DNA from: an uncultured Gammaproteobacteria bacterium
GTDB lineage: Bacteria; Patescibacteriota; Patescibacteriia; CAYZDG01
Direction: 5' to 3'
DNA: 64,000 bases
Assembly: GCA_964536515.1 (NCBI GenBank)
Contig: CAZHXI010000001.1
Span: 31,480 to 95,479, forward strand
In this document: positions 10,416 through 49,233 of the stretch, piece by piece
How the letters are laid out: every line of letters starts with the position of its first letter
Numbering within the stretch: the first letter of the stretch is position 1
Program-made: the position numbers and the translations under genes
Notes under the pieces: model-generated
The model's input: only the letters and a program-made list of their open reading frames with translations
Told to the model about the DNA's origin: nothing
Database searches by the model: none

Positions 10416-10418
10416 GAT

Positions 10419-19004: not shown

Positions 19005-19009
19005 CGCAT

Positions 19010-22044: not shown

Positions 22045-22056
22045 TAGACTGCAGCT

Positions 22057-22620: not shown

Positions 22621-23084
22621 TGCCGACCGAGGAAGAGAAGTTAGTAGCGGATGCCGAACGGCAGCAACGTCGGCAGTCGCAGGCTGCGGCCGAGAGCGAG
22701 AAGCCCAGCGGGGCGGGCGAGGCGATCGGGGGCATAGTCGCCAAGGTTTCGCCCACGGCAGCGGCGCTCCAGTTCGCCTGGAGGTTCTACCTGCCCTCGT
22801 TCACCCTCACGTCCATCTACATTGTGCTGCACATCTTGCTGCGGTACGTATTCCAGTTCAAACTCTTCTGTCGAGCAGATGAGGGCTCTCCCCTGGGGGG
22901 AGTCGGCAAGTCGGCGGCCTCAGCGTTCGGCGCGGGTGGCGGGACGAGCGAGAAGGCTTGGATTGCCCTCGGCCTTGCCTCGGGTCTGCCGCTGGCGTTC
23001 GCCTGCGTTCTCCTGTACGCCATTGCCTACGCCATGGAGCACCCGCTATCTACGCTGTACGCGTTGCTGACCGGCAACCTATAG
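22620..23084 (+). CDS. Small polytopic membrane protein
   Basis: Start ATG overlaps the upstream stop (TAATG); 2-3 hydrophobic helices (FTLTSIYIVLHILLRYVF; IALGLASGLPLAFACVLLYAIAYA). Confidence 0.4.
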   Translation: MPTEEEKLVADAERQQRRQSQAAAESEKPSGAGEAIGGIVAKVSPTAAALQFAWRFYLPSFTLTSIYIVLHILLRYVFQFKLFCRADEGSPLGGVGKSAASAFGAGGGTSEKAWIALGLASGLPLAFACVLLYAIAYAMEHPLSTLYALLTGNL

Positions 23085-23120
23085 CGAGACGGCGCTCGGG
23101 CTTTACGCTACACTAATTCC

Positions 23121-25421: not shown

Positions 25422-25868
25422 TTACTTCTGCTTCGTTACTACACGCTGGGGTACAGCATTGCGCTGCATATTCCAGGCGCTGGTCATGCTCGTATCGACG
25501 AAGATTTTTGAGTGGGGACCCAGGTGGTCACGGTGCACTAGGCACCTGTTGCATGCGTCCCTGTCGGTTGCCACAACGGCAAAGTCGTGGTCTTCTCCAT
25601 CGTCAGATGAGACACGGACCACGCCAATGCACTGTAGCGTGCTGCCGTATTGCTCGCAGAGTTCGGCGAGTTCACGTGGCGACTGGGGCGAGGGGTGCGT
25701 AATGTTCACGGTTAGCCTGCTGTCGCGGACCACGTGCTCTCGCAGCTCTCCCCTCGGGGTTGGCAGCGCCTCATTGATGCGAACCTGACTGACGCCCGCC
25801 CCAAATAGGCGAGTTCGTACGAAGCTTTGCAGCCCCTCTCCTGGGGCCACTGGAATGAAAGAATCCAT
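25422..25868 (-). CDS. Hypothetical protein in a lower-GC island
   Basis: Start at internal ATG (MDSFIPVAPG…); no recognisable motifs. Region 25380-26190 is visibly lower GC, with an AT-rich upstream tract at 25860-25990. Confidence 0.35.
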   Translation of the reverse strand: MDSFIPVAPGEGLQSFVRTRLFGAGVSQVRINEALPTPRGELREHVVRDSRLTVNITHPSPQSPRELAELCEQYGSTLQCIGVVRVSSDDGEDHDFAVVATDRDACNRCLVHRDHLGPHSKIFVDTSMTSAWNMQRNAVPQRVVTKQK

Positions 25869-26193
25869 TTTTTCTGCTCGGTTTTTTGTTTTTCGGTTTT
25901 GAAAATCGAGATAGTTTCCGCCACCTTTCCGTTGGCGGTTTAGTTTCGGGTTATATATTTGAAGTCTTGTAGGGGTTAATTTTGGGTCGGCCGGGGCGCC
26001 GGGCAGCGGAACCGAAAACCGCTGCCCGGTGCTGGCGGCGCACGGAAAACTCGATGGCGTTTGTAGCTTTCGCGGCGAACACGGCACAGCGTGCTCCCGA
26101 CCGACCCTTAGTGAGTTGAACTCAGATCATTCCCTTAGGAATTCAATGAGCTTACGCCAGGATAGTGCTACTAAGCTTAAGAAATGTCAAGCC

Positions 26194-32811: not shown

Positions 32812-33180
32812 ATGGATACGCTGCGCGACGTCGTTTCGGTTCAGTTCGTGGCTGCATGCCTGGGCGCGGCGCTGGTTCTGGTGGAGATATTTCGCCAGGG
32901 TGGCCGCTACAGCATTAAGCTGGTGACGGGCATTGGCCTGGGGTCTGCCCTGGTCTTAGCTATCGGCTCTGGCTACCTAGAGCTCACGGCGTTCTCCGTC
33001 CGCATCGTCGTCTTGAGCTGGCTCAGCTTCTTCGGCGGCTACCTGGGCGCGGCGCTGCTGGTGGCCCTGTACGCCGTGGCCGTGGTCAGCCTGTGCCTGG
33101 CCGTTGTCGGTCTCAATCGGACGTGGGGTTGGGTAAGCCAGCGGCTGACGCGTCCGCGAAGCCGTACTGTCCCTCACTGA
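32812..33180 (+). CDS. Small polytopic membrane protein (GtrA-like partner of the glycosyltransferase, by position)
   Basis: 122 aa, 4 hydrophobic helices; the start follows the GT2 stop by 2 nt. Confidence 0.4.
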   Translation: MDTLRDVVSVQFVAACLGAALVLVEIFRQGGRYSIKLVTGIGLGSALVLAIGSGYLELTAFSVRIVVLSWLSFFGGYLGAALLVALYAVAVVSLCLAVVGLNRTWGWVSQRLTRPRSRTVPH

Positions 33181-33183
33181 ATT

Positions 33184-33270
33184 TGGTGCCGGGGGAGGGG
33201 GTCGAACCCTCACGATCTTGCGATCTCGGGATTTTGAGTCCCGTGCGTCTGCCAGTTTCGCCACCCCGGC
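33184..33270 (-). tRNA. tRNA-Leu (CAA) with long variable arm
   Basis: GCCGGGG-TG-GCGAAACTGGCAGACGC-A-CGGGA-CTCAAAA-TCCCG-AGATCGCAAGATCGT-GAGGGTTCGACCCCCTC-CCCCGGC-A-CCA (minus strand). Confidence 0.8.
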
Positions 33271-33332
33271 TCGACGTCAGTCCACCATACCCTTGGGGCA
33301 GCGTCAACGCGACGGTATACTGACTGCCTGCT

Positions 33333-34106
33333 ATGAGCCGAACGATTGCCATCGTCAACCAGAAGGGCGGGGTGCGCAAGACCACTTCGGCCGTTACCAG
33401 GAGCCCAGCACTGGCCCGCCCGGGTTTCCGCGTGCTGCTGGTCGACGCAGACCCGCAGGGCAACGCTACGTCAGGCCTGGGCATAAACCCGCACGAGCTT
33501 CCGCACAGCCTGTACGATGTGATCGCCGAGGGGCCGACCACCGTCGCCGACGTACGGCTAGGCACGACCGTAGACAAGCTGCACGTGGTGCCCGCGCGGC
33601 CCGACCTAGCCGGGGCCAACGTAGAGCTGGTGGGCATGCCCGAGCGAGAGTTCCGCCTGCACCGGGCCCTGCAGCCGATTGCGGATGACTACGACTTCAT
33701 CATCATAGACAATCCTCCGTCTCTCGGCTTGTTGACCATCAACGGGCTGGTAGCGGCCCACGACGTGCTGATTCCCGTGCAGTGCGAGTACTACGCGCTG
33801 GAGGGGCTGGGCCAGCTGCTGCGCACGGTGGAGCTGGTCCGCAGCAACCTCAAGCCGGACCTCAACATACTCGGCGCTGTGATGACCATGTACGACGGCC
33901 GCAATAAGCTCAGCGAGGCGGTGTTCAACGAGCTGTACCAGTACTTCCCCAACCGCATCTTCCGCACCGTCATTCCGCGGACGGTCCGCTTGGCCGAGGC
34001 GCCCTCGCACGGGCAGGACATTGGCGTGTACGAGCCCGAGGGTAGGGCCGCCCGCGCCTACGGCAAGCTGGCCCAGGAGGTAGCTGCGGCGTACAGGGGC
34101 TGGTAG
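33333..34106 (+). CDS. parA: ParA/Soj chromosome partitioning ATPase
   Basis: Deviant Walker A AIVNQKGGVRKTT; VLLVDADPQGNATS; IIIDNPPSLG. Confidence 0.85.
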   Translation: MSRTIAIVNQKGGVRKTTSAVTRSPALARPGFRVLLVDADPQGNATSGLGINPHELPHSLYDVIAEGPTTVADVRLGTTVDKLHVVPARPDLAGANVELVGMPEREFRLHRALQPIADDYDFIIIDNPPSLGLLTINGLVAAHDVLIPVQCEYYALEGLGQLLRTVELVRSNLKPDLNILGAVMTMYDGRNKLSEAVFNELYQYFPNRIFRTVIPRTVRLAEAPSHGQDIGVYEPEGRAARAYGKLAQEVAAAYRGW

Positions 34107-34107
34107 G

Positions 34108-34173
34108 GGGAGGACTGAGGACGCAGGACTTAGGACATAGAACCCCAATCGTTTCCCGTCCTATGTCCTAAGT
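34108..34173. repeat. Heptameric direct repeats (gaGGAC tgaGGAC gcaGGAC ttaGGAC atagAAC) overlapping a 13-bp inverted repeat (ACTTAGGACATAG … CTATGTCCTAAGT, 20-nt spacer) between parA and parB
   Basis: Read directly from 34108-34173. Confidence 0.6.
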
Positions 34174-34196
34174 TCTGTTTCCTGTATTCTACCTGC

Positions 34197-35069
34197 ATGG
34201 CATCACCACTCGGCCGAGGACTGGGCGCAATCATTCCCTCGGCGAACCCTGTCCCGACTACCCCCGCTCCGGCCGTCGTTGCGCCGTCATCCGACGACCA
34301 GGTGTTACACCTGGCGCTGGGGCAATTGAAGCCAAACCCCCACCAGGCTCGCCAGGTATTCGACCCCGCCAGCCTGGATGAGCTGGTTTCGTCCATCCGT
34401 GAGCACGGCATTCTGGTGCCGCTCGTCGTTACCCCGACCGGGGACGGCTCGTACTACATTGTGGCGGGGGAGCGGCGGTTCCGCGCCGCTGGCCAGGCCG
34501 GGCTAGACACCGTGCCCGCCATTGTGCGGCAGGCCTCGGACCTGCAGCGCATGGAGCTGGGCCTAATCGAGAACATCCAGCGCACCGACCTGAACGCCGT
34601 TGAGCTCGCGCACGCCTACCAGAAGCTGGCAGACGAGTTCTCGCTGACGCAGGAGCAGATAGCGCAGAAGGTGGGCAAGGCGCGCCCCTCGGTGGCCAAC
34701 ACGCTGCGCGTGCTGCAGCTGCCGGACGAGGTCCAGCACGCCATAGCGGACGGCAAGATTACGTTCGCCCACGCCAAGGTGCTGCTCTCCACGCCCGAGG
34801 CCGAGCGCGACGCGCTGTTCCGCAAGATGCTGTCTGGCCAGCTATCGGTCCGTGCCTCGGCTATGGCAGCCGAGCCCAGCACCATCGTGCACAGCCACCG
34901 ACGCCGCAGGGGCAAGAGCCCGCAGCTGCAGGAGCTAGAGAAGCAGCTGCAGGATAAGCTGGGTACCAAGGTGCGCATCGGCGCCCAGGGCAACGGCGGC
35001 GAGATTAGCGTTACCTACTACGACCAGGCGGAGCTGGCGCGCATCAGCCGCCAGCTGCTGGGGGAGTGA
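34197..35069 (+). CDS. parB: ParB/Spo0J chromosome partitioning protein
   Basis: LVPLVVTP…YYIVAGERRFRAAGQAGLDTVPAIV ParB box; HTH region; C-terminal dimerisation segment. Confidence 0.85.
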   Translation: MASPLGRGLGAIIPSANPVPTTPAPAVVAPSSDDQVLHLALGQLKPNPHQARQVFDPASLDELVSSIREHGILVPLVVTPTGDGSYYIVAGERRFRAAGQAGLDTVPAIVRQASDLQRMELGLIENIQRTDLNAVELAHAYQKLADEFSLTQEQIAQKVGKARPSVANTLRVLQLPDEVQHAIADGKITFAHAKVLLSTPEAERDALFRKMLSGQLSVRASAMAAEPSTIVHSHRRRRGKSPQLQELEKQLQDKLGTKVRIGAQGNGGEISVTYYDQAELARISRQLLGE

Positions 35070-35085
35070 TAATCTTGCATGTCAT

Positions 35086-35102
35086 GCCGGGCTCGACCCG
35101 GC
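35086..35102 (+). terminator. Hairpin after parB (GCCGGGC-TCGA-CCCGGC)
   Basis: Perfect stem immediately 3' of the parB stop. Confidence 0.45.
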
Positions 35103-35108
35103 ATCTAT

Positions 35109-35138
35109 TTGACACCCCTCTAGACGGAGGGGTATAGC
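35109..35138 (+). promoter_or_regulatory. Sigma70-like promoter TTGACA-[CCCCTCTAGACGGAGGGG]-TATAGC with palindromic GC-rich spacer, followed by a ~95 nt hairpin-rich leader
   Basis: -35 TTGACA 35109-35114, 18-nt palindromic spacer, -10 TATAGC 35133-35138. Leader hairpins CTGCTCCT…AGGAGCAG and GGCTCG…CGAGCC. SD AAAGGAAAGG before ATG 35236. Confidence 0.5.
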
Positions 35139-35235
35139 TACCGAGCACTTGAATCTGCTCCTTGAAATTTCACAAAGTAGGAGCAGCCGTTGGCTCGTCG
35201 GACTCGAGCCGTAAGCAAGAAAGGAAAGGTGTGTC

Positions 35236-36087
35236 ATGGCTTTCCATGGTGCGTCTCCACATTTCTATGAATCTCCCGAAGTCGTTGAGGAATTCGGAAG
35301 AGATGGCGGCCTCATACATGAGGTCGTTGTAGCTGGACGGAAACAGGGAATCGGCAAAAAGTTTTGGGCATACCTAGCCCACAGCCCCGAGGTGTTCGAG
35401 GCTGTCATACAGTTCGTGAACGAAGGTAGGGCACGACCCTGCATTGAGTACAGGAGAGCCATTGGGCTACTGGAATCTGTTAATTCAATTGATGCCCAAC
35501 AGGCAGGGTACTGTTGGCTGGAGAAGCCACAGAATTACGGTGTCCACTACACCAAGGCTACGCTCGACGTGTGCATGGTCGAGAATGCCCAGGGTAAGGC
35601 TGACTGGCGTTTGGTATACCTATTCAACCTTAGCTTGAGCAATATTGTTAAGAAGCTAGAGCCGGGTAGCGTACACTACGTGCCGTTCGGTCTCGTTCTA
35701 GAGCGTCCGCCGTTAGGCGATTGGTCCCACGGGGCAAAGCCGGAGGGGTACTACCTAATTAACTTCAAGCCGCAATTCCTTGGGTGTAATTGGTCAGCCA
35801 AAGTTGAAGAGATGGAGAAGCTCGATGGTAGGTTCTTTTGGCCCAATCCTGCATCCATTGCTCAGGCGATTATGTCCGCGGGTACCATTCCCGGTGCCGA
35901 CCCGACCCAAGTGGGTCGACCGGAGAAAAAATTATTGCTCCGACATGGTGCACACGTAGCGTACGACGGGAATTTTGTTAGCATTACCCGCTGGCTCGAT
36001 GAGAAGAGCGTGCAGTGGTCGCCAATTGAAAAGGATGACGACCTCGCGAGCAGCGCTGGCGTATGCATTGGTTTACGATGGGAGTAA
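35236..36087 (+). CDS. Hypothetical protein, visibly lower GC than its neighbours (accessory gene)
   Basis: 283 aa; a GRKQGIGKKF segment vaguely GNAT-motif-A-like but misplaced. No confident family. Confidence 0.45.
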   Translation: MAFHGASPHFYESPEVVEEFGRDGGLIHEVVVAGRKQGIGKKFWAYLAHSPEVFEAVIQFVNEGRARPCIEYRRAIGLLESVNSIDAQQAGYCWLEKPQNYGVHYTKATLDVCMVENAQGKADWRLVYLFNLSLSNIVKKLEPGSVHYVPFGLVLERPPLGDWSHGAKPEGYYLINFKPQFLGCNWSAKVEEMEKLDGRFFWPNPASIAQAIMSAGTIPGADPTQVGRPEKKLLLRHGAHVAYDGNFVSITRWLDEKSVQWSPIEKDDDLASSAGVCIGLRWE

Positions 36088-36143
36088 CTGCCTGCTAGAG
36101 GCAGCCAAGGCCCCGGGAAAATCCCGGGGCCTCATTCTATTCT

Positions 36144-37637
36144 CTAGCTATCGTTCCGGCCGGGGAGGAAGCGGCGGAGTAGGCCGAGGTTGTCGTTGCG
36201 CAGCCTCTGCTTTATCTTGGCGCGGGCCTGGTTTGTAGCTACGAACTCTAGCCAGTCCTGCTTGGGCTTGCCGCCGGCCTTGTTGGCCGCGATTTCAACA
36301 ACGTCGCCGCTGTGCAGGTGGTGGGAGAGTGGAACCTGCATGCCGTTCACCCGCGCCCCGATGCAGCTGTCTCCCAGCTGGGTATGCACGTGGTAGGCAA
36401 AGTCTACGGGCGTGGCGCCCTCGGGCAGGTCGATTACGTCACCCTTGGGGGTGAACACGAACAGCCGGTGCGAGAACAGGTCCAGCCGCAGCCCCTCTAG
36501 GTACTGCTCGTGCGTCGGCGCCTCTTCCTGCCAGGCTTTGAGCTGCGTCAGCCACTCCCGCTGCCAGCGGCTTAGCCGCTTGGCGCTGCCCTCCTTGTAG
36601 CGCCAGTGCGAGGCTAGGCCGAACTCGGCCTGCTCGTGCATCTCGCGGTCGCGTATCTGGAACTCCACCACGTGGCCCTTGTCCGCGAATACGGTGGTGT
36701 GCAGCGAACGGTAGCCGTTGGACTTGGGCTGGGCAATGTAGTCTTTTATCCTGCCCTTCAGCGGCGTCCACAGGCGGTGCAGCACGCCCAGGCAGACGTA
36801 GCAGTCCGCCACCGTGGGCACCACTATGCGCAGGGCCACCAGGTCGTACACCTTGCTGGGGTCGTCGCCGTGGCGCCGCAGCTTGCGGTAGAGCGAGAAG
36901 CGGTGCTTGACCCGGCCCTCCAGGCTGATGATGGGCACGCCGTTCTGCTTCAGAGCCTTAACCGCCTCGTGCCTAATCTGCTCTAGGTACTTCTTCTCCG
37001 CCGGTAGCGCCTTGGCCATTAACGTATCCACCGACCTGGCGCCGTCTGGGTCGGCGTAGGGGAAGGCGGCGTCCTCCAGCTGGCCGCGTAGCTCGCCCAT
37101 GCCCAGCCGGTCCGCGATGGCGGCGTAGATGTCTATGCTCTCGCGGGCGATGCGCTGCTGCTTAACCGGCGGCAGCACGTCCAGCGTGGCTAGGTTATCT
37201 AGCCTATCCGCGAACTTGATGAGTATCACCCGCACGTCGTCCGCCATGGCCACGAACATCTTGCGTAGGTTCTCGGCGTAGCGTTCTAGCCCGCGGTACT
37301 TGAGCGTGCCCAGCTTGGTGATGCCGTCCACCAGCTTGGCTACCTCCTTGCCGAAGCGTTCCTGCACCTCGTCCTGCGTTCGCTCCGTGTCCTCCGGCAC
37401 ATCGTGCAGCAGGCCGGCCACGACCGTGGGCACGTCCATGCCCCAGCGGGCCAGGGTTAGGGCGGTGCGGGCGGGGTGGTTTATGTAGGGCTCGCCGCTG
37501 TGGCGCCTCTGGTCGCCGTGGGCCTCGGTCGCAAAGCGGTAGGCGTCCGCGATGGGCTGCACGTCGTCGCCGGGCCGCTGCTGCCGCACGGCGTTCAGTA
37601 TTTGCTCCAGCGTTGGCGCGGGCGGGGGCGTAGGCAT
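36144..37637 (-). CDS. rel: Bifunctional (p)ppGpp synthetase/hydrolase Rel (short form: HD + synthetase + TGS, no ACT)
   Basis: HD motif LLHDVPEDT; synthetase RIKDYIAQPKSNGYRSLHTTV; TGS-like VFTPKGDVIDLPEGATPVDFAYHVHTQLG. Confidence 0.85.
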   Translation of the reverse strand: MPTPPPAPTLEQILNAVRQQRPGDDVQPIADAYRFATEAHGDQRRHSGEPYINHPARTALTLARWGMDVPTVVAGLLHDVPEDTERTQDEVQERFGKEVAKLVDGITKLGTLKYRGLERYAENLRKMFVAMADDVRVILIKFADRLDNLATLDVLPPVKQQRIARESIDIYAAIADRLGMGELRGQLEDAAFPYADPDGARSVDTLMAKALPAEKKYLEQIRHEAVKALKQNGVPIISLEGRVKHRFSLYRKLRRHGDDPSKVYDLVALRIVVPTVADCYVCLGVLHRLWTPLKGRIKDYIAQPKSNGYRSLHTTVFADKGHVVEFQIRDREMHEQAEFGLASHWRYKEGSAKRLSRWQREWLTQLKAWQEEAPTHEQYLEGLRLDLFSHRLFVFTPKGDVIDLPEGATPVDFAYHVHTQLGDSCIGARVNGMQVPLSHHLHSGDVVEIAANKAGGKPKQDWLEFVATNQARAKIKQRLRNDNLGLLRRFLPGRNDS

Positions 37638-37690
37638 GGGGGAATAGTATCCCGAACCAGAGGCGCGCTGCTAGGCGACCTCGGTTCGGG

Positions 37691-37801
37691 ACCCCGCACC
37701 GGACGTAGTCCTGGTGCGGGGCAGGACTGGGGACGGAGGACAGAGGGCGGGATTTAGAACATAGAACTGAGAACACAGAGAGGGCGCCGCGAAGCGGCGC
37801 C
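37691..37801. repeat. Near-palindrome (CCCCGCACCGGAC…GTCCtGGTGCGGGG), then a heptamer direct-repeat array (cAGGAC tgGGGAC ggAGGAC … ttAGAAC atAGAAC tgAGAAC), then a GGGCGCCGC-GAA-GCGGCGCCC hairpin
   Basis: Read from 37691-37801, between the rel start (37637) and the end of paralog A (37818). Confidence 0.55.
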
Positions 37802-37817
37802 CCACATGTGTTTTGAC

Positions 37818-38246
37818 CTAGACTGCCTTGTCACGTTTCTTGTCTTCGGCCTCATCGCGTCTTCCTACGGCCGTACGTACCGTTATGAGCCCGAGGTCGT
37901 TGTTCAGCTCGGCATTTTTTTCCCAGACATGAATCGCCCTGCTCATCTCAGCGTGGTCCTTGAATATTCCAATGATGACGCGGCTACGGCGTAGCCCTAC
38001 GGGCAGATTCCTCCCAAGTAAGCTTTCTAGGTCAGCTTGGTATACATCTCCCGGGAAGATGACTAAGCAGCCGTCGAGCCGTTTTCCCTTGTCGTTACTA
38101 CCGCTGAGGTAGATGAAGGCAAAGAAGCTATTGGAGCTGATCCTTTTGGCCCGATCGATGTCTCTCAATGCTGCTCTGTGGAGGTCTTCCCAGACAAGGA
38201 TCTCAAACGAACCACTGGCGTTGCTGGTGGTGTATTCAATGAACAT
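37818..38246 (-). CDS. Hypothetical small protein, paralog A of a tandem pair (lower GC)
   Basis: Start at internal ATG 38246; the track ORF uses TTG at 38288, which overlaps the predicted -10. Shares an F-AF-Y-x-G…PGD-Y-A-L core with paralog B. Confidence 0.5.
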   Translation of the reverse strand: MFIEYTTSNASGSFEILVWEDLHRAALRDIDRAKRISSNSFFAFIYLSGSNDKGKRLDGCLVIFPGDVYQADLESLLGRNLPVGLRRSRVIIGIFKDHAEMSRAIHVWEKNAELNNDLGLITVRTAVGRRDEAEDKKRDKAV

Positions 38247-38282
38247 ATCTCTTACCGCCCTTTTGTTGGTTCTGTACGAATG

Positions 38283-38320
38283 GCGCAACGTTAAACCCCG
38301 CGGGTGCGGGTGTCAATCGT
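38283..38320 (-). promoter_or_regulatory. Promoter of paralog A: TTGACA-[CCCGCACCCGCGGGGTT]-TAACGT (minus strand)
   Basis: -35 at 38311-38316, 17-nt GC palindromic spacer, -10 at 38288-38293. Near-identical copy precedes paralog B. Confidence 0.55.
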
Positions 38321-38370
38321 TGGGGTGATGAAAGGGCGGCGCTTTTGCGCCGCCCTCAGGTTTAGCTTGC

Positions 38371-38778
38371 CTAGCTCGGAATGAGCTTCGTTCGTTCAGC
38401 GCTCTTTCGGTTCTCGATAGCAGCTTCTAGACGATCGTTGGCTTCGCGTCCGCAATCGAGCCTAAAGCTTTGTATCAAGGCAACCTCGTTACGTAGCGCC
38501 CCAAAGCTCACCTTGCAGGTCGTCAGATCATCGGCGACGATATGCATCGTTATCTGCCTCAGCGAGTCTGCGTAGCTATCTCCAGGCTTTACTAGCAGTG
38601 ACTCGCGTACCAAGCTGTTGGTTCCCGTCAGGCCCTCAACGTACACGAATGCCGCAAAGGTATCTGGAAACTGGGTAGCCATCTGGTTCAGGGCCTTCCT
38701 TATCTGGTTTGGAATTTGCTTGCGGGCAAGCCTATCAGCCCCTGCCTCAGGGTCTCTGCTGACGAAAGTAGTTACCAT
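38371..38778 (-). CDS. Hypothetical small protein, paralog B of the tandem pair
   Basis: 135 aa; ATG with perfect AGGAGG SD 5 nt upstream. FAAFVYVEGLTGTNSLVRESLLVKPGDSYADSL core aligns with paralog A. Confidence 0.55.
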   Translation of the reverse strand: MVTTFVSRDPEAGADRLARKQIPNQIRKALNQMATQFPDTFAAFVYVEGLTGTNSLVRESLLVKPGDSYADSLRQITMHIVADDLTTCKVSFGALRNEVALIQSFRLDCGREANDRLEAAIENRKSAERTKLIPS

Positions 38779-38814
38779 TGTTCCTCCTGGAGGATTGAAT
38801 ATTACGGTGCAATG

Positions 38815-38850
38815 GGCGCAACTTAAGCCCCGCGGGTGCGGGTGTCAATG
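38815..38850 (-). promoter_or_regulatory. Promoter of paralog B: TTGACA-[CCCGCACCCGCGGGGCT]-TAAGTT (minus strand)
   Basis: -35 at 38843-38848, 17-nt spacer, -10 at 38820-38825. 35/38 identical to the paralog A promoter. Confidence 0.55.
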
Positions 38851-38864
38851 CGCGGGCCGGCTAC

Positions 38865-39770
38865 CTACCGGTTGATGAGGTAGACGCCGGCCAGCAGCAC
38901 AGCCAGCGAGGCAGCCTTGCGCAGCAGCGTTGCTCTGCCGATGTCCTCCCTGCCCAGCTTGGGAACCAGCAGCGTAATGCCCAGGCCGATGAGGAAGGCG
39001 AACACCGGGTGCAGTCCGTTCACCAGCTGCACCAGGGCCAGGGGCGCCATCAGCGAGGCGGCCGCCAGCAGCAGCACGCCTACTGCGCTGATGATCTCGT
39101 TGATTGCGTTGAGCGCCAGCACGCCGGAGGTATTCGTCCGTACAGCTGCCACGAATTCACGGCGGTAGGTTGGAACCAGAGCGACAAGGGAGACTCCGGC
39201 TGCGGCGTAGCCCACGTACTGCCAGAAGGCGGTAACCCAGTAGCTCGCCTCAATGGCGACCAGCTTGAACAGGAGGTTGGTGGTCGCCAGTATCGCCGAT
39301 GCGAGCAGCATCTGCAGCAGCGGCTTCACCCGAACCTTTCCGGTTCCGGGCTGGAACATGAAGGCAACGGCAGCGCCGACGATGAGCAGGCCTCCCGTGG
39401 CTTGCGTTCCGGTTAGGGATTCGCCGAGGAAAGCTGCAGCGAGGATGAAGCCGAACAGTGGAATAGTCTGGAATGCAGGCACCACGTTGGAGGCGTCCTC
39501 GTGCTGCAGGGCGTACATGTACGGCAGCAGCGAAACAATGAAGAGCGCGCCGCTGCCGACCATTACCAGCGCCGGCAGCCAGCCAATGGCTAGCACGTCC
39601 GCGCCGAGCAGGGGGATAGCCAGGGCGATGGGTAGCCCGATGGCCGCCGAGAACAAAACCAGGGCGCCTATCCCCAGGCTGCGTGCGTACCTGCCGATGA
39701 GGTACTTATCGATGTGGTTGCTAATCGCCCACAGCACCGGGGCGCCGAGGGCGAGCAGGAACCAGTGCAT
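38865..39770 (-). CDS. EamA/DMT-family transporter
   Basis: 301 aa, 10 TM helices, two EamA-like halves. Confidence 0.65.
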   Translation of the reverse strand: MHWFLLALGAPVLWAISNHIDKYLIGRYARSLGIGALVLFSAAIGLPIALAIPLLGADVLAIGWLPALVMVGSGALFIVSLLPYMYALQHEDASNVVPAFQTIPLFGFILAAAFLGESLTGTQATGGLLIVGAAVAFMFQPGTGKVRVKPLLQMLLASAILATTNLLFKLVAIEASYWVTAFWQYVGYAAAGVSLVALVPTYRREFVAAVRTNTSGVLALNAINEIISAVGVLLLAAASLMAPLALVQLVNGLHPVFAFLIGLGITLLVPKLGREDIGRATLLRKAASLAVLLAGVYLINR

Positions 39771-39773
39771 ACT

Positions 39774-42023
39774 TTAGCTTACACCCGCCTCTCGTTTGTA
39801 CGCGCAGCCCTTCCTCGAGCACTTGATAGTATCCTTTGGCCCCTGGATGAGCGGCCAGCCGCAGTCCGGGCAATTCTCGGCCATGGGCTTGGCCCAGATG
39901 GCGCATTTACATTCGGGGTAGCGATCGCAGGAGTAGAACAGCTTGCCGCCGCGGCCACGCTTGCCCACCAGCTCACCCTGCTTGCATTCGGGGCACGTAA
40001 CGCCGGTCTTGTTCTGCGTCTTCTTGATGTACTTGCAGTCTGGGTACCTGTCGCAGCCGAAGAACACGCCGAAGCGGCTGCGCTTCTGCACCAGCTTGCC
40101 CTGGCCGCACTCGGGGCAGGCCTCCACAGGTGCGTTCGGATCTGCCTCGGGCGCCGCCTCCTCGTTCTTGCCGGCGATGGGCTTCTTGTACTTGCAGTCG
40201 GGGTAGCCGGTGCAGGCGTAGAACTTGCCGTAGCGCCCCAGCTTAATGATCAGCGGCTTGCCGCACTCGGGGCACTTCTCGTCCGTAGCCGTTTCGGTCG
40301 CCTCCTTCTTGGTGACCTCTTTTTCTTTCACCACTAGGTTCGCCTTGAACGGGCCGTAGAAGTCTGCCAGAACCTTGTGCCAGTCGGCCTCGCCCTCGGC
40401 GATGTCGTCGAACTTCTGCTCTAGGTCTGCCGTGAACTTTAGGTCCACCACGTGCGGGAAGTGTTTGACCAGCAGGTCGTTGATGGCGATGCCCATGTCG
40501 GTGGGGTGAAGGCGGCGTTCCTCGCGGGTAACGTAGTGGCGGTCCACCAGCGTGGTGATGGTTGGTGCGTAGGTGGACGGGCGGCCGATGCCGTTGGCCT
40601 CCAGCGCCTTCACCAGCGTGGCCTCGGAGTAGCGAGCCGGCGGCTCGGTGAAGTGCTGGCTGGGCTCTACCTTCTGCACCTCCACCGCCTGGCCAACCGC
40701 CAGCGCGGGCAGCGTGGTCTCCTCGTACTTGGTGGGGTAGACCTTGAGGAAGCCGTCGAACACGCAGCGGTTGCCGGTGGCGCGGAAAACCAGCTCCTCC
40801 TTGGGCGAGGCAAGGTCCACGCTGGAGGAGGCGAACTGCGCCTCGGCCATCTGGCTGGCTACGGCCCGCTGCCAGATGAGCTGGTACAGCTTGAACTGCG
40901 GCGCGGTCAGGTAGGCGTGGATGGAATCGGGCGTGCGGGAAGCCTCGGTGGGGCGGATAGCCTCGTGCGCCTCCTGCGCGCCCTTGCTCTTGGTCTTGAA
41001 GCGGCGCGGGTGCTCGGGCAGGTAGCGCTCACCGAACTTCTCCTCCACCACGCTGCGCGCCCCGGCCAGGAAGTCGTTGGAGAGGTTCATCGAATCCGTA
41101 CGCATGTAGGTGATGAGGCCCGTGCTGCCCTCGCCGGGCAGGTCTACGCCCTCGTACAGCTGCTGGGCCAGCTGCATTGTCTGCTTGACGCTCATGCCCA
41201 GGCGGTGGTTGGCCTCCTGCTGCAGGGTAGAGGTGGTGAACGGCGCAGCCGGGCTGCGCTTGACCTTGCCCTCGCCCACGTCCGATACGACGAAGCGGCA
41301 GGCGCAGGCTGCCGCTACAATTTCTTTCGCTCGGGCTTCTGTGGCGATATCAAACTTGTCCAGAATTTTCCCGTCTACGGCGCGTAGGCTGACGGGGAAC
41401 TTCTCGTGCGCGGCCACGCCCGTGGCCTCTACGGTCCAGTACTCGCGGGCGACGAACGCCTCGATCTCACGCTCTCGCTCCACGATGATGCGCAGCGCCG
41501 CAGACTGCACGCGGCCAGCCGATAGTCCGTACTGCACCTTGCGCCACAGGAAGGGCGACAGCTCGTAGCCCACCAGCCGATCCAGAATCCGCCGGGCCTG
41601 CTGCGCGTCTACCAGGTGTAGGTCTAGCTTGCGGGGCGATTCCAGCGCGTGCTCGATAGCCGTCTTGGTGATCTCGTGGAAAACGATGCGCTTGGCGCTG
41701 TCGTGGGGAATATCCAGCAGCGCGTGCAGGTGCCAGGCAATGGCCTCGCCCTCGCGGTCTTCGTCAGTCGCGTACAGGATCTCGCCGCTCTTCTTGGCGG
41801 CAGCCTTAATCGCCGCCACGGCCTCCTTGGCCTTCGCCGGCACCAGGTACGTGGGCTCGAAGCCATTCGCCACGTCTACGCCGATCTTGCTCTTGGGCAA
41901 ATCGCGCACGTGGCCGTAGCTGGCCAGCACGGTGTAGCCGCTGCCCAAGAAGCGCGTGATGGTGCGCGCCTTGGTGGGTGACTCTACTATCACCAGCTTC
42001 TTCTTCTCCTTCGTGGACGGCAT
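39774..42023 (-). CDS. topA: DNA topoisomerase I with C-terminal zinc-ribbon repeats
   Basis: KLVIVESPTKARTITRFLG TOPRIM start; active-site Tyr region GLITYMRTDS; three C-x2-C…C-x2-C zinc ribbons at the C-terminus. Confidence 0.9.
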   Translation of the reverse strand: MPSTKEKKKLVIVESPTKARTITRFLGSGYTVLASYGHVRDLPKSKIGVDVANGFEPTYLVPAKAKEAVAAIKAAAKKSGEILYATDEDREGEAIAWHLHALLDIPHDSAKRIVFHEITKTAIEHALESPRKLDLHLVDAQQARRILDRLVGYELSPFLWRKVQYGLSAGRVQSAALRIIVEREREIEAFVAREYWTVEATGVAAHEKFPVSLRAVDGKILDKFDIATEARAKEIVAAACACRFVVSDVGEGKVKRSPAAPFTTSTLQQEANHRLGMSVKQTMQLAQQLYEGVDLPGEGSTGLITYMRTDSMNLSNDFLAGARSVVEEKFGERYLPEHPRRFKTKSKGAQEAHEAIRPTEASRTPDSIHAYLTAPQFKLYQLIWQRAVASQMAEAQFASSSVDLASPKEELVFRATGNRCVFDGFLKVYPTKYEETTLPALAVGQAVEVQKVEPSQHFTEPPARYSEATLVKALEANGIGRPSTYAPTITTLVDRHYVTREERRLHPTDMGIAINDLLVKHFPHVVDLKFTADLEQKFDDIAEGEADWHKVLADFYGPFKANLVVKEKEVTKKEATETATDEKCPECGKPLIIKLGRYGKFYACTGYPDCKYKKPIAGKNEEAAPEADPNAPVEACPECGQGKLVQKRSRFGVFFGCDRYPDCKYIKKTQNKTGVTCPECKQGELVGKRGRGGKLFYSCDRYPECKCAIWAKPMAENCPDCGWPLIQGPKDTIKCSRKGCAYKREAGVS

Positions 42024-42071
42024 TCAGGTTTGTATGTACCTGGCGGTTGTAGCACGCGCCTTTTCGACGCG

Positions 42072-43163
42072 TCAAATTTTCTGCAGCGAGCTGCCCACGC
42101 GCGACGCGGCTCCGCACAGCTCTAGCTCGGTGATTGCGGCGGCGAGTTCGACGGCTCCTATGCCCAGCGATTCACCAATAGAATCAATGGCCATTGGCTC
42201 GTGGTTAGGCAGCGCCGCGTACACCTGTTCTGCGGCCGGGGTGAGGTCCAGCTGGGCACGCCGCGGCGCCTCAGCAACTCGAGTCGGGGCCGACGACGCG
42301 CCGATGGCCTCCAGCACGTCCGCCGCGTCGGTGCAGGGTGCGGCACCCCGCCGCAGCAGCCTATTGGTCCCCGCCGAAGACGGGCTGGTAATGGGGCCGG
42401 GCACGGCTAGGACCTCGCGGTTCTGCTCCAGCGCCAGGTGGGCTGTTAGCAAGGCGCCAGACTTTTCGCCCGCCTCTACCACCACCGTTGCGGCGCACAG
42501 CCCGCTTACGATCCTGTTCCGGCGGGGGAAGTGGCCGCGCAGCGCGGGCATTCGCAGGGGGTGCTCGCTGACTATGCATCCGCCCAGCTCAAGCATCTGC
42601 TCCGCCAGTCCGCGGTGCTCGACTGGGTACATTACATCCCACGCTAAGCCGGTGCCGACCACGGCTACCGTTCTGCCACCCGCTTCCACCGCGCCGGCGT
42701 GCGCTGCAGCGTCTATGCCGTACGCCAAGCCAGAGACGACGGTAATCCCGCTGCCCGATAGGTCACGCGCCAGCTGCTTTGCTACGTCCAGTCCGTACTT
42801 GGTGCACCGCCTGGTGCCGACGATTGCTACGCACGTTCCCGTCGGCCGCGTCCCCCGGTACGTAAGTAGCGGCGGGGGAGCGGGAATCTCGCGCAGCAGA
42901 GACGGGTAGCCGTTGTCCGCTATCGTTACGACGTTCACGCGGTTATCCACCAGCTCCTGCCAGGCAGAGGAAGGATTGATCGTGGATCGTTTTTTGTTAA
43001 TGGCTCTAACGACGTTCGGTCTAATGCCGATAGCCGTGAGCTGATCCTCTCTAGCTGCCCACGCATCATCCGGATCCGCGAACGAATCCATAATCAGACG
43101 CAGCGACTTCGGTCCGACCTCGGGAATGCAGGTGTAGGCGTAGAGGAGTTGGGGGAGGGTCAT
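42072..43163 (-). CDS. dprA: DNA processing protein DprA (Smf)
   Basis: Rossmann-like core SGLAYGIDAAAHAGAVEAGGRTVAVVGTGL…HFPRRNRIVSGL. The start is uncertain (GTG at 43193 in the track; ATG candidates at 43178 and 43163). Confidence 0.8.
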   Translation of the reverse strand: MTLPQLLYAYTCIPEVGPKSLRLIMDSFADPDDAWAAREDQLTAIGIRPNVVRAINKKRSTINPSSAWQELVDNRVNVVTIADNGYPSLLREIPAPPPLLTYRGTRPTGTCVAIVGTRRCTKYGLDVAKQLARDLSGSGITVVSGLAYGIDAAAHAGAVEAGGRTVAVVGTGLAWDVMYPVEHRGLAEQMLELGGCIVSEHPLRMPALRGHFPRRNRIVSGLCAATVVVEAGEKSGALLTAHLALEQNREVLAVPGPITSPSSAGTNRLLRRGAAPCTDAADVLEAIGASSAPTRVAEAPRRAQLDLTPAAEQVYAALPNHEPMAIDSIGESLGIGAVELAAAITELELCGAASRVGSSLQKI

Positions 43164-43172
43164 AGATCGCTC

Positions 43173-43292
43173 TGTCATTTCGAACCCGAGCACAGCGAGG
43201 GTGAGAAATCTAGCTCACGGCTACGTTAGATTTCTCGTCGCCCCCTCACCTTTCGCTTCGCGAACAGGTGTGAGGGCTCACTCGAAATGACA
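43173..43292. repeat. Structured element with 11-bp terminal inverted repeats (TGTCATTTCGA … TCGAAATGACA) and nested internal inverted repeats, upstream of dprA
   Basis: Arms at 43173-43183 and 43282-43292; internal GGTGAGAAATCTA…TAGATTTCTC…CTCACC pairing. Confidence 0.45.
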
Positions 43293-46854: not shown

Positions 46855-46900
46855 CCGTAACCTCCCCCGTTCCAACGGGGGAGTTAGCTATACCCTAGTA

Positions 46901-46929
46901 TTGACGAAATATGATAAATGTGCTAATAT
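46901..46929 (+). promoter_or_regulatory. Strong sigma70-like promoter in a very AT-rich island (TTGACG-17-TAATAT)
   Basis: -35 at 46901-46906, -10 at 46924-46929; AAAGGAG SD before ATG 46978. Confidence 0.55.
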
Positions 46930-46977
46930 ATATTTATTAGGTAAACCTTGAAAACCAGTTCCAAAAAGGAGAAAAGA

Positions 46978-47646
46978 ATGGAAGCTTGGATTTTTGCAAA
47001 CAAACTGACGGTAGGTTTCTGGTCGGCCATCGTGGCCAGTGGATTCTTAGCCCTGTGCTTCGTGACCGTGCTCGTGACTCGTGCCATCAGAGCCAGATCG
47101 TTCAGGCGCGCGACGCTGGCGAAGCTCAGCAGCGTAGCAGCAGAGCTCGGCCAGCTCGCTGGCCAGTTGCAGTCGAACGACTTCGTCCGCAAGCAGGCGC
47201 TGGATCGTATCGTTGACTTCTTCGATACGGTCAGCCGATGGCACGACCGAGATGCCGAGCTGGCGGCGATCATTGCCGACCTGACGGCGTTGAACAGGCG
47301 GAATGATTACGACGGCGTGCTGCGAGACCTGGCCACGCTGCGGGCTCACCTCAACAATGCCGGCCGCTCGCCATACGGCTTGAACAGGACTAAGCCGGGA
47401 GAGCGGGTTACAGCTGACAGCGTCTACCTGGGTGATATCTTCGGCCTGTGGACCAAGACGGTTGCGTACTGGAAGACGACGGCCAGCGAGCCGAAGGACC
47501 AGTGGCGCGGCGGGATGTGGGCTGGGCACAACGGCGTGGCGGGCAAGAACTGCTACGACGTCGTCTCCACTCAGGCCGCAGATTTCATGGCCGGACACAT
47601 CGGACCGATCGTCGAGCTGGCGGGCAAGGTTCAGCAAGCGCGTTGA
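46978..47646 (+). CDS. Hypothetical single-pass membrane protein (accessory)
   Basis: N-terminal TM WIFANKLTVGFWSAIVASGFLALCFVTVLV then a ~180 aa soluble domain. Start at ATG 46978 with SD. Confidence 0.5.
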   Translation: MEAWIFANKLTVGFWSAIVASGFLALCFVTVLVTRAIRARSFRRATLAKLSSVAAELGQLAGQLQSNDFVRKQALDRIVDFFDTVSRWHDRDAELAAIIADLTALNRRNDYDGVLRDLATLRAHLNNAGRSPYGLNRTKPGERVTADSVYLGDIFGLWTKTVAYWKTTASEPKDQWRGGMWAGHNGVAGKNCYDVVSTQAADFMAGHIGPIVELAGKVQQAR

Positions 47647-48557: not shown

Positions 48558-48580
48558 TATCATTGACACTAATTAGCATA
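48558..48580 (+). promoter_or_regulatory. Promoter-like motif TTGGTATCATTGACAC (shares TGGTATCATTGAC with the 56861 motif)
   Basis: 13-nt identity with 56866-56878. Lies in the AT-rich divergent region between dsbA-like(-) and 48640(+). Confidence 0.4.
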
Positions 48581-48639
48581 TATGATATAAAAGTTACGTA
48601 ATTGAACCAGAACGACCAAATTAGAGAGTAGGAGGAGCA

Positions 48640-49233
48640 ATGAGCTCAAGTAAAAGACGGCTCGGCGGCTGGGGAATGTGCGGTATTATTGGCCTCGCGG
48701 TAGTGGCGCTGATTGCGCTCACGAACCTCAACCCAGGCCTGTGGCAGGCGATGAAGGGAGCGGGAATTCGGACGAATTCGGCGATGGCGTACATCGCCAT
48801 TTCACAGCCCCAGGCTGTCCACGCGTTGCTCGAGGGTGAGCTGGAAGAAGTCGCCTCCGACGATCCCGGTGTGGACCTGTGGTCTCCTGATCGATTCAGA
48901 GAAGCGCGCAGCATCAACGAGAGCTGCTGGACGAGGTCTAACTACGGCCTGCTACGCATCGATCGCCGCGGTGGCCGCAGTTACCTGGAGCTCTCCCCGA
49001 ACGGCAACCACACGGTATGGGAGACGTACGGGGAGCTGACGGCGGCAACGGAGCAGTCCGTAGCTGCAGCGGGCAAGCCCAATTTGGAGACGTTCCTCTC
49101 CGGCGGGCGGGTAGCCTGGGGGACGCTCAGCGTCCACCTGGCTGGTAGGAACCCCGACGACGCGACGGCGATCGCGGCAATGTTCATTCCGTACGGGACG
49201 CCCGAGGATTTCGTTCTCACCCCCGACGAGTAG
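48640..49233 (+). CDS. Hypothetical membrane-anchored protein
   Basis: AGGAGG SD; N-terminal hydrophobic anchor MCGIIGLAVVALIALT. Confidence 0.45.
   Translation: MSSSKRRLGGWGMCGIIGLAVVALIALTNLNPGLWQAMKGAGIRTNSAMAYIAISQPQAVHALLEGELEEVASDDPGVDLWSPDRFREARSINESCWTRSNYGLLRIDRRGGRSYLELSPNGNHTVWETYGELTAATEQSVAAAGKPNLETFLSGGRVAWGTLSVHLAGRNPDDATAIAAMFIPYGTPEDFVLTPDE

What the first reader, a model, noticed from the sequence alone, without database searches (positions are those of the whole stretch)
37818..38860. Tandem pair of diverged paralogous small genes (143 aa and 135 aa), each behind a near-identical promoter, next to rel
Paralogs A and B share a conserved core (FFAFIYLSGSNDKGKRLDGCLVIFPGDVYQADL vs FAAFVYVEGLTGTNSLVRESLLVKPGDSYADSL) at only ~25% identity overall. 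Their 38-nt promoter regions are ~92% identical, so the proteins diversify under conserved regulation. Both genes are lower GC than their surroundings. Tandem arrays of rapidly diverging small proteins with conserved regulation are typical of immunity, antitoxin or anti-defence families. I cannot assign a known family to these proteins.
Basis: partly seen in the sequence, partly recalled or inferred. Interest (0 to 1): 0.7.

Follow-up and report, generated by a model that had tools for sequence, protein, structure and literature searches.

The report
Swappable orphan gene cassettes beside rel
Two small, distantly related genes of unknown function in a candidate-phyla-radiation bacterium each carry their own near-identical promoter and their own terminator. 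They sit in a chromosomal slot whose content differs between close strains, and nothing shows what the proteins do.

Summary
Genes A (37818-38246, 142 aa) and B (38371-38778, 135 aa) lie on the minus strand between an EamA transporter gene and rel. Each has a ~35-nt promoter-like element that differs from the other copy by one mismatch and one indel. Each ends in a strong hairpin terminator. Both are about 52-54% GC in a 65% GC genome.

A and B are distant homologues. A third member, C, found in a related strain, links them.

The family has only these three members among about 15 billion proteins. It matches no Pfam, NCBIfam, PHROG, PADLOC or PDB family. The AlphaFold model of B is a generic beta-alpha-beta-beta-alpha-beta fold plus helices, with no informative structural neighbour.

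The host is a high-GC Patescibacteria (CPR) bacterium. Related strains carry B+A, B only, C+A, or no cassette in this interval. Orthologues are under purifying selection (dN/dS 0.2-0.3).

The units are built like phage "morons" and behave like Neisseria "minimal mobile elements". No integron features, recombinase, toxin or defence gene lies nearby.

The immunity, antitoxin or anti-defence reading is neither supported nor excluded. Interest is modest.

The parts
38815..38849 (-). Promoter-like element P, copy upstream of B. The -35 TTGACA is at 38843-38848, followed by a 17-nt GC-rich spacer CCCGCACCCGCGGGGCT, a -10-like TAAGTT at 38820-38825, and the conserved GTTGCGCC.
   Evidence: The same element precedes B in L001 and C in L002. 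It begins only 18 nt after the EamA stop codon, with no terminator in between.
38371..38778 (-). Gene B, 135 aa. It is an orphan alpha/beta protein with a GGAGG ribosome-binding site 5-6 nt upstream of the ATG.
   Evidence: The AF2 model has pLDDT 78 and pTM 0.73. A 97%-identical orthologue occurs in L001. dN/dS is 0.30, from 8 nt differences.
38331..38357 (-). Intrinsic-terminator-like hairpin after B: GAGGGCGGCGC-AAAA-GCGCCGCCCTT, followed by TCAT.
   Evidence: Folds at -24.2 kcal/mol, z = -6.2 against shuffles. It is conserved in L001. Homologous hairpins with compensatory changes follow C and A in L002.
38282..38317 (-). Promoter-like element P, copy upstream of A. The -35 TTGACA is at 38311-38316, and the -10-like TAACGT is at 38288-38293.
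   Evidence: Between the window and L002 there are no mismatches from the -35 through codon 17 of A (115 nt, with one 1-nt indel), while the rest of the ORF differs at about 10% of sites.
37818..38246 (-). Gene A, 142 aa, a diverged paralogue of B.
   Evidence: The orthologue P0002 is 91-93% identical. dN/dS is 0.21 over 37 nt differences. A is absent from the related strain L001.
37781..37803 (-). Intrinsic-terminator-like hairpin after A: GGGGCGCCGC-TTC-GCGGCGCCC, followed by TCTCTG.
   Evidence: Called by the terminator scan. Folds at -25.2 kcal/mol, z = -5.3. A compensatory C/G swap in the stem is seen in L002.
38865..39770 (-). EamA-family transporter gene, the upstream flank of the cassette slot.
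   Evidence: Pfam EamA, E=8.8e-11. It is only 70-85% identical between the window and L001, whereas the adjacent B cassette is 95-100% identical. It is absent from L004.
36144..37637 (-). rel (RelA/SpoT homologue, 497 aa), the downstream flank of the slot.
   Evidence: Pfam HD_4, RelA_SpoT and TGS domains. In L001 it follows B directly.

Best explanation
A and B are two of only three known members (A, B, C) of a lineage-restricted orphan family. The proteins are about 135-142 aa, cytoplasmic and near-neutral in charge. They are predicted to fold as beta-alpha-beta-beta-alpha-beta followed by C-terminal helices.

Each gene is packaged as a self-contained expression unit: a sigma-70-type promoter (perfect -35, weak -10), a ribosome-binding site, the ORF, and a strong hairpin terminator. 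The units sit head to tail in a strain-variable slot between core genes (topA/EamA and rel) of a high-GC Patescibacteria (CPR) chromosome.

Shown:
- The anatomy of the units.
- Homology of the three proteins and of their flanking promoter and terminator sequences.
- Purifying selection on the ORFs.
- Presence/absence of cassettes and replacement of one cassette by another between related strains.

Inferred:
- Each unit is transcribed on its own.
- Units are gained, lost and swapped by homologous recombination that uses the conserved promoter and terminator sequences, and the flanking core genes, as homology arms. DprA is encoded 3 kb away.
- The promoter is kept identical by selection for shared regulation or by gene conversion.

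Most speculative: only hydrophobic and turn residues are conserved and no polar catalytic set exists. The proteins therefore probably act by binding a partner rather than by catalysis. The strain-variable, foreign-composition, autonomously expressed pattern fits a protective accessory role, immunity-like against a strain-specific toxin or phage. I put that function at about 0.2.
For: Anatomy.

Homology:
- A-B by BLASTP, E=5e-5.
- B-C, E=9e-10.
- hhalign, E=4e-5 with columns in register.
- Matching secondary structure.
- Invariant columns are F, A, F, G, L, P, G, Y, L.

The genes are real:
- dN/dS 0.21 and 0.30.
- A confident AF2 fold for B.
- A ribosome-binding site, and compensatory changes in the terminator stems.

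Strain variability:
- The window and L084 have EamA-B-A-rel.
- L001 has EamA-B-rel, with the junction inside the terminator tail.
- L002 and L003 have EamA-C-A followed by another gene.
- L004 (rel 90% identical at the amino-acid level) has topA, a 305-aa orphan on the opposite strand, then rel, with no cassettes.
- Sources.

Exchange or constraint:
- The B cassette is 95-100% identical between strains whose EamA is 70-85% identical. dS is 0.043 for B against 0.67 for EamA.
- The promoter and 5'UTR of A have 0 mismatches in 115 nt.

Foreign composition.

The same build recurs for other low-GC orphans in the window. Five of the eight TTGACA hexamers in 64 kb sit upstream of such genes, and orf283 shares the TTGACACCCC start of its promoter.

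Rarity: no other member in the 5.8-billion-cluster word search, in exhaustive HMMER over 1.84 billion representatives, in GTDB genomes, in JGI metagenomes, in IMG/VR, in phage or plasmid collections, or in 80 related rel loci.
Against: - No transcript data exist. The -10 is weak and the consensus scan did not call a promoter.
- B has no terminator between it and EamA, so it may also be read through from EamA.
- Only four locus types were seen, all on short contigs. The recombination mechanism is therefore inferred from junctions, not observed.
- The identity contrast with EamA could mean that EamA, rather than the cassette, is the exchanged or fast-evolving part. The short topA and rel pieces are 87-98% identical.
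- No partner, toxin, phage or defence context is present.
- Orthologues show purifying, not diversifying, selection.
Confidence: 0.45

Rival explanations
1. This is an ordinary tandem duplication of a lineage-specific hypothetical gene with a physiological, non-conflict role, for example a stress-related or rel-linked accessory factor. The promoter copies stay alike through gene conversion or simple constraint. The strain differences are plain deletions and divergence rather than cassette exchange.
For: - The promoter, ORF and terminator of A, B and C are all homologous, so whole-unit duplication is the simplest origin.
- Selection is purifying.
- The units sit directly upstream of rel in two strains.
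- CPR genomes are full of unannotated small genes, and many ORFs in this window have no Pfam hit.
Against: - B and C occupy the same slot between conserved flanks yet share only 29-34% amino-acid identity, while the neighbouring A is 91% identical between the same two strains.
- The low GC argues against long residence in this genome.
- The closest GTDB relative lacks the genes altogether.
- The B cassette is far less diverged than EamA.
Confidence: 0.25
2. One reading: the proteins are immunity proteins, antitoxins or anti-defence proteins, arrayed like orphan immunity islands such as the rAID-1 arrays of Bacteroidales.
For: - rAID-1 arrays share three traits with this locus: skewed GC, co-directional small genes and repetitive intergenic sequences (paper 10.1101/471110).
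- The proteins here are small and cytoplasmic, and only core residues are conserved.
- The content varies between strains.
Against: - No XerD-like or other recombinase was found in 64 kb.
- No match to any Pfam immunity or antitoxin family at E<=1, and no PADLOC or PHROG hit.
- No toxin or secretion effector is nearby.
- The units are monocistronic, so this is not a type II toxin-antitoxin system.
- Only 1-2 cassettes are present, all from one family.
Confidence: 0.2
3. The units are leftovers of a mobile element or phage ('morons' left in the chromosome) that are expressed but give the host no benefit. In this view the 35-nt element is a mobile-element promoter.
For: - The build matches the textbook moron: own promoter, own terminator, deviant GC, and insertion between genes that are adjacent in relatives (PMC3594210).
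- The promoter has a canonical -35, unlike the nearby core genes.
Against: - There is no similarity to any phage or plasmid record, IMG/VR contig or PHROG.
- No phage or integrase gene was found in the 64 kb.
- dN/dS of 0.2-0.3, and the near-identity of B across diverged strains, indicate the genes are maintained.
Confidence: 0.1
4. A/B/C are small regulators that bind the palindrome-containing spacer of their own promoters. In this view the conserved element is an operator for autoregulation.
For: - The promoter spacer and the downstream GTTGCGCC are conserved well beyond the two hexamers.
- The spacer contains a CCCGC...GCGGG inverted repeat.
- orf283's promoter has an analogous CCCCTC...GAGGGG repeat.
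Against: - No DNA-binding domain is detected by sequence or fold.
- The proteins are hypervariable while the DNA element is nearly invariant, the opposite of what a cognate protein-operator pair predicts.
- The inverted repeat is no more stable than shuffled sequence (z -1 to -1.9, and +0.7 for C's copy).
Confidence: 0.05

Closest known systems
Phage 'moron' elements (HK97/HK022 type)
   Same: Each is a single gene with its own promoter and terminator. [quoted passage not shown] It is inserted between genes that are adjacent in related genomes (definition in PMC3594210; here).
   Different: The units here sit between core chromosomal genes of a CPR bacterium, not in a phage or prophage, and no phage similarity was found. 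They are also tandem, homologous to each other, and share one promoter sequence.
Minimal mobile elements (MMEs) of Neisseria
   Same: [quoted passage not shown] Here the slot holds B+A, B only, C+A, or none.
   Different: Here the cassettes themselves carry repeated internal homology, namely the shared promoter and terminator. They belong to a single protein family, and the host is a CPR bacterium. Uptake and recombination are inferred, not shown.
rAID-1 orphan-immunity arrays of Bacteroidales
   Same: Both have co-directional small genes of skewed GC separated by repetitive intergenic sequences, with content that varies between strains (10.1101/471110).
   Different: rAID-1 is defined by a 5' XerD-like recombinase and contains recognisable immunity-gene homologues in arrays of up to 31 genes. 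Here there is no recombinase, no immunity homology, and only 1-2 genes.
Integron gene cassettes
   Same: Both are tandem, co-directional single-gene units separated by conserved palindromic sequences.
   Different: There is no attC architecture and no IntI. Every unit has its own promoter rather than depending on a common Pc.

Membership tests
Integron cassette array | attC site at the 3' end of each cassette (RYYYAAC ... imperfect palindrome ... GTTRRRY) | tested here: not met
   A regex search of 37640-38900 on both strands found no R''...R' pair. The only RYYYAAC (GTTTAAC) lies inside the promoter element and is followed directly by GTTGCGC.
Integron cassette array | Adjacent IntI tyrosine recombinase with attI and a common promoter Pc, and promoterless cassettes | tested here: not met
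   No recombinase domain was found in about 45 ORFs scanned across the 64 kb. Each unit has its own TTGACA-N17-TAnnnT element. The only IntI1 fragment seen is in a mosaic JGI contig that looks chimeric.
rAID-1 (recombinase-associated acquired interbacterial defence) | 5' XerD-like tyrosine recombinase | tested here: not met
   The gene upstream is an EamA transporter, and no recombinase was found in the window. The criterion is taken from 10.1101/471110.
rAID-1 (recombinase-associated acquired interbacterial defence) | Two or more co-directional genes of deviant GC with repetitive intergenic sequences | tested here: met
rAID-1 / polymorphic-toxin immunity families | Sequence membership in a known immunity family, or adjacency to a cognate toxin | tested here: not met
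   Pfam (which includes the Imm and SUKH families), NCBIfam, PADLOC and PHROGs gave 0 hits at E<=1. A PDB profile search gave nothing. The neighbours are EamA, rel, topA, dprA and parAB.
Phage moron | Own promoter and terminator, GC different from the surroundings, present as an insertion relative to related genomes | tested here: met
   Sequence-level signals only. L001 lacks A and L004 lacks all the units.
Phage moron | Resides in a phage or prophage genome | tested here: not met
   The flanks are core genes. There was no phage or plasmid DNA match, no PHROG hit, and no IMG/VR match to the protein family or to the promoter element.
Minimal mobile element | Different whole-gene cassettes between the same conserved flanking genes in different strains | tested here: met
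   The window and L084 carry B+A, L001 carries B only, and L002/L003 carry C+A. All the comparison contigs are short (1.3-3.6 kb).
Minimal mobile element | Incorporation by homologous recombination after DNA uptake, with no dedicated mobility genes | not testable with these tools
   This is indirect only. The junctions fall in the shared terminator and promoter sequences. There is a step in identity at the cassette border. dprA is encoded at 42072-43193 (assigned from my reading of the translation, not Pfam-tested here).
Type II toxin-antitoxin pair | Two-gene operon encoding a toxin and a cognate antitoxin from known families | tested here: not met
   A strong terminator and a second promoter separate B from A. 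The two proteins are homologous to each other. There are no toxin-antitoxin family hits.
Ferredoxin-like (beta-alpha-beta-beta-alpha-beta) fold | Beta-alpha-beta-beta-alpha-beta topology with a four-stranded sheet | tested here: inconclusive
   The order of secondary-structure elements in the AF2 model of B fits. The weak recurrent matches are to Y-family polymerase little-finger domains and to de novo alpha/beta designs. TM-scores are below 0.5, and the model rests on only 5 sequences.

The most novel reading that the evidence does not exclude
The shared promoter and terminator are more than expression signals. They act as portable homology arms of a recombinase-free cassette-exchange system, through which a CPR lineage shuffles a private family of hypervariable binding proteins. 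In effect this would be an integron-like immunity or anti-phage repertoire maintained purely by natural transformation and homologous recombination. The other promoter-ORF-terminator orphans in the genome would be further instances of the same system.
Probability: 0.12. Interest if true: 0.65.

Novelty: new member of a known kind. Interest (0 to 1): 0.33.

Why it matters
CPR bacteria have tiny genomes, and a large share of their genes is unannotated. How they acquire and express accessory genes is poorly known.

This locus gives a clean, small example. Foreign-composition orphan genes arrive as ready-made promoter-gene-terminator units, at a slot that differs between close strains. The regulatory DNA is held nearly constant while the proteins have diverged beyond DNA-level recognition.

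If the proteins prove to be protective binders, the locus would be an entry point to conflict systems in CPR episymbionts. If not, it is a well-documented case of ordinary lineage-specific accessory genes.

Tried and rejected
- **Curated libraries.** Pfam, PHROGs, NCBIfam and PADLOC were run on A, B and orf283. There were no hits at E<=1, apart from a sub-threshold DUF2755 match for orf283.
- **Homologue searches.** Two single-sequence searches and one profile search of the 5.8-billion-cluster database returned only near-identical orthologues and C. Exhaustive HMMER over 1.84 billion representatives found the same three proteins plus long repetitive junk translations such as P0004.
- **Other collections.** A profile scan of GTDB genomes and of JGI metagenomes found nothing. 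A pattern search for the promoter element in metagenome and viral contigs found nothing. blastn against phage and plasmid collections found nothing.
- **Related loci.** A family HMM run against six-frame ORFs of 85 fetched loci and the window found no further members.
- **Second structure model.** A was submitted without an alignment and gave a low-confidence model (pLDDT 50). I used it only for its secondary-structure pattern.
- **RNA families.** Rfam over 33000-43000 found only a tRNA and sub-threshold noise.
- **Spacer hairpin.** I tested whether the spacer palindrome acts as a structured element. Its folding is not better than shuffled sequence.
- **Integron idea.** Rejected: no attC sites and no IntI (and the Pfam scans).
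- **Paralogue dN/dS.** At 17-32% amino-acid identity, synonymous sites are saturated.
- **Source genome.** Exact-protein look-ups for the window's own orf283 and EamA found no record. Those for A, B and rel found only short contigs from one further sample, SRR12487045. The rest of the source genome could not be reached.
Full report
**What is there**

Two ORFs lie head to tail on the minus strand, between an EamA-family transporter gene (38865-39770) and a RelA/SpoT homologue (36144-37637). B is 38371-38778 (135 aa).

Each ORF is preceded by the element ATTGACACCCGCACCCGCGGGG[Y]TTAA[C]GTTGCGCC, at 38815-38849 and 38282-38317.
- The two copies differ by one transition and one 1-nt indel.
- The 21-nt core occurs exactly twice in the 64 kb, against 0.01 expected.
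- Read as a promoter, it has a perfect -35 (TTGACA), a 17-nt spacer, and a weak -10 (TAAGTT or TAACGT).
- The -10 matches TATAAT at only three of six positions, although these are the three best-conserved ones. That is why the consensus scan did not call it.

B has a GGAGG ribosome-binding site.

Each ORF is followed by a strong GC hairpin and a T-rich tail.
- The hairpins fold at -24.2 and -25.2 kcal/mol, z = -6.2 and -5.3 against shuffles.
- Each gene is therefore a self-contained promoter-ORF-terminator unit.
- No terminator separates EamA from the first promoter element, so B may also receive read-through transcription.

The region is 51-55% GC, against 63-69% in the flanks and 64.7% for the whole window.

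**Are A and B paralogues?**

Yes, but distantly.
- BLASTP gives 22% identity over 63 residues, E=5e-5.
- A profile-profile comparison gives E=4e-5, with columns 37-97 of each family aligned to one another.
- A third member, C (134 aa, P0003), occupies B's position in a related strain. It matches B at E=9e-10 but does not match A directly.
- The AlphaFold model of B has pLDDT 78 and pTM 0.73. Its elements are E2-6, H11-35, E41-49, E55-62, H68-81, E86-94, H97-107 and H110-130.
- The low-confidence single-sequence model of A places its helices and strands at the same residue numbers.
- The columns invariant across A, B and C are F, A, F, G, L, P, G, Y, L, plus a few in the last helix. These are core and turn residues, with no conserved polar set.
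- The promoter elements and the terminator hairpins of all cassettes are also homologous, with compensatory changes in the stems. The whole unit was therefore duplicated, not just the ORF.

**Are they real genes?**

Orthologue pairs show purifying selection.
- A in the window vs L002: 37 nt differences, dN/dS 0.21.
- B in the window vs L001: 8 nt differences, dN/dS 0.30.

Together with the expression signals and the confident fold, spurious ORFs can be dismissed.

**Who carries them?**

The rel protein's relatives in GTDB genomes are all Patescibacteria (CPR): Komeilibacteria, Kerfeldbacteria, Veblenbacteria, Uhrbacteria, Magasanikbacteria and similar groups, at 49-57% identity. One MAG contig (L004) is 90% identical.

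The rest of the window fits a CPR chromosome. It encodes core genes (parAB, topA, dprA, mfd, recG, pth, der, hisS, lepB, rpsF), a PrgI/TraG-type secretion cluster, DUF5671, and giant proteins without domains.

No recombinase, toxin, defence or phage gene was found among about 45 ORFs scanned.

**How rare is the family?**

Every search returned only A, B, C and their near-identical orthologues. The searches were:
- Word-indexed searches of 5.8 billion clusters, with single sequences and with a profile.
- An exhaustive HMMER pass over 1.84 billion representatives. The extra hits are repetitive junk translations.
- GTDB genomes, JGI metagenomes, IMG/VR, and the phage and plasmid collections.
- The rel neighbourhoods of 80 related genomes.

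No curated family matches.

Fold searches give only generic two-layer alpha/beta matches.
- Y-family polymerase little-finger domains recur weakly.
- Foldseek on the PDB and on BFVD finds nothing at E<=0.001.

**The new fact: the slot is strain-variable**

| Source | Arrangement |
|---|---|
| Window and L084 (identical DNA) | EamA-[B]-[A]-rel |
| L001 | EamA-[B]-rel |
| L002 and L003 | EamA-[C]-[A], then a convergent unrelated gene |
| L004 | topA, a 305-aa orphan on the other strand, then rel (no EamA, no cassette) |

In L001 the junction lies in the tail of the terminator hairpin.

Between the window and L002, A is 91% identical at the protein level. The occupant of the first position, however, is B in one strain and C in the other, at 29-34% identity. 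The promoter before it and the terminator after it remain recognisably the same.

Between the window and L001, identity is 70-85% across EamA. It steps up to 95-100% from the last few tens of bases of EamA through the B terminator. dS is 0.043 for B against 0.67 for EamA.

Between the window and L002, the 115 nt from the -35 through codon 17 of A contain no mismatch, while the rest of the ORF differs at about 10% of sites.

These patterns fit cassette exchange by homologous recombination, with constraint or gene conversion acting on the regulatory DNA. They are not proof, for two reasons:
- All the comparison contigs are short.
- EamA, rather than the cassette, could be the unusual partner in the identity contrast.

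**A general pattern in this genome**

Other low-GC orphan genes in the window are built the same way, with a canonical -35/-10 pair upstream and a hairpin downstream. They are orf283 (35236-36087), orf221 (25422-26087), orf197 (48640-49233) and orf232 (46948-47646).
- Five of the eight TTGACA hexamers in the 64 kb are these promoters.
- orf283's promoter starts with the same TTGACACCCC and also has a CCCC...GGGG inverted repeat in its spacer.
- orf283 is absent from L004, where parB and rel are 18 nt apart.

**Mechanism**

The best-supported account has three parts.
- Each unit is transcribed autonomously.
- The units are accessory genes of foreign composition, in a recombination-prone slot.
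- The conserved promoter and terminator serve both for expression and, probably, as homology for gain, loss and replacement.

The proteins are most likely non-enzymatic binders, because only core residues are conserved and the pI is near neutral at about 7.8. A protective, immunity-like role is the most natural guess for strain-variable, autonomously expressed small proteins. Nothing here tests that guess, and I give it about 0.2.

The alternatives are set out under the rival explanations. They are an ordinary duplicated hypothetical gene, a stranded moron, and an autoregulator.

**Comparison with known systems**

- **Phage morons.** The architecture matches: own promoter and terminator, deviant GC, inserted relative to relatives (PMC3594210). 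The units are not in a phage, though.
- **Neisseria minimal mobile elements.** The behaviour matches: different whole-gene cassettes between conserved genes, incorporated by homologous recombination (PMC3082526).
- **rAID-1 immunity arrays.** The locus shares skewed GC and repetitive intergenic sequences (10.1101/471110). It lacks the defining recombinase and any immunity homology.
- **Integrons.** This is not one: there is no attC, no IntI, and each unit has its own promoter.

**Verdict**

The protein family is new but tiny, and it has no functional handle.

The phenomenon, lineage-specific accessory genes in a variable chromosomal slot, is a known kind. Its interest is modest. It comes mainly from the clean cassette architecture in a CPR genome and from the sharp contrast between near-invariant regulatory DNA and highly diverged proteins.

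Noticed in passing
window 34111-34183 and 37723-37774; also L001 ~1690-1750 and L004 ~1495-1570: Arrays of the 7-nt repeat GTYCTNN (3-5 copies) occur only in the parA-parB intergenic region, as an inverted pair of arrays, and just upstream of rel. There are 7 pattern hits against 0 expected. The arrays are conserved upstream of rel in related strains. They are probably a binding array for an unknown regulator.
   Followed up: partly
window 35109-36132: orf283 (35236-36087, + strand, 52% GC, no family hit) is another promoter-ORF-terminator unit. Its promoter reads TTGACACCCCTCTAGACGGAGGGGTATAGCT, and its hairpin terminator is at 36108-36132. It lies between parB and rel and is absent from L004, where parB and rel are 18 nt apart.
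   Followed up: partly
window 25422-26190, 46900-47646, 48563-49233: Three more low-GC orphan genes without Pfam hits lie between core genes. Each has a canonical TTGACA/TTGACG-N17-TAnnnT promoter and a downstream hairpin.
   Followed up: partly
L085 (JGI 3300045372 contig, 1150 nt), 630-785 and 775-1057: This contig joins a fragment encoding the C-terminus of a class-1-type integron integrase (…[40 protein letters not shown]…; recognised from memory, not searched) to the last ~70 nt of EamA, the promoter element and the first 47 codons of B. Unrelated sequence follows. It looks like an assembly chimera rather than a real junction.
   Followed up: partly
window 37638-37720: The rel upstream region holds two long GC hairpins: CCCCGCACC...GGTGCGGGG and CCCGAACC...GGTTCGGG. 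A TACTAT hexamer lies 7 nt before the ATG, which suggests a leaderless or very short-leader rel mRNA. The stretch is 98% identical in L001, but the hairpins are absent in L004.
   Followed up: no
L004 164-1081 (minus strand): In the closest GTDB relative (rel 90% identical), the topA-rel interval holds a single 305-aa orphan gene on the opposite strand, in place of EamA plus the cassettes. It is unrelated to orf283.
   Followed up: partly
window 2757-13535 and 17910-25365: Two giant ORFs (2552 and 1038 aa) have no Pfam domain. Next to them is a PrgI / TraG-P-loop (VirB4-like) cluster made up mostly of unannotated genes. Both features are typical of CPR cell-surface and secretion loci.
   Followed up: no
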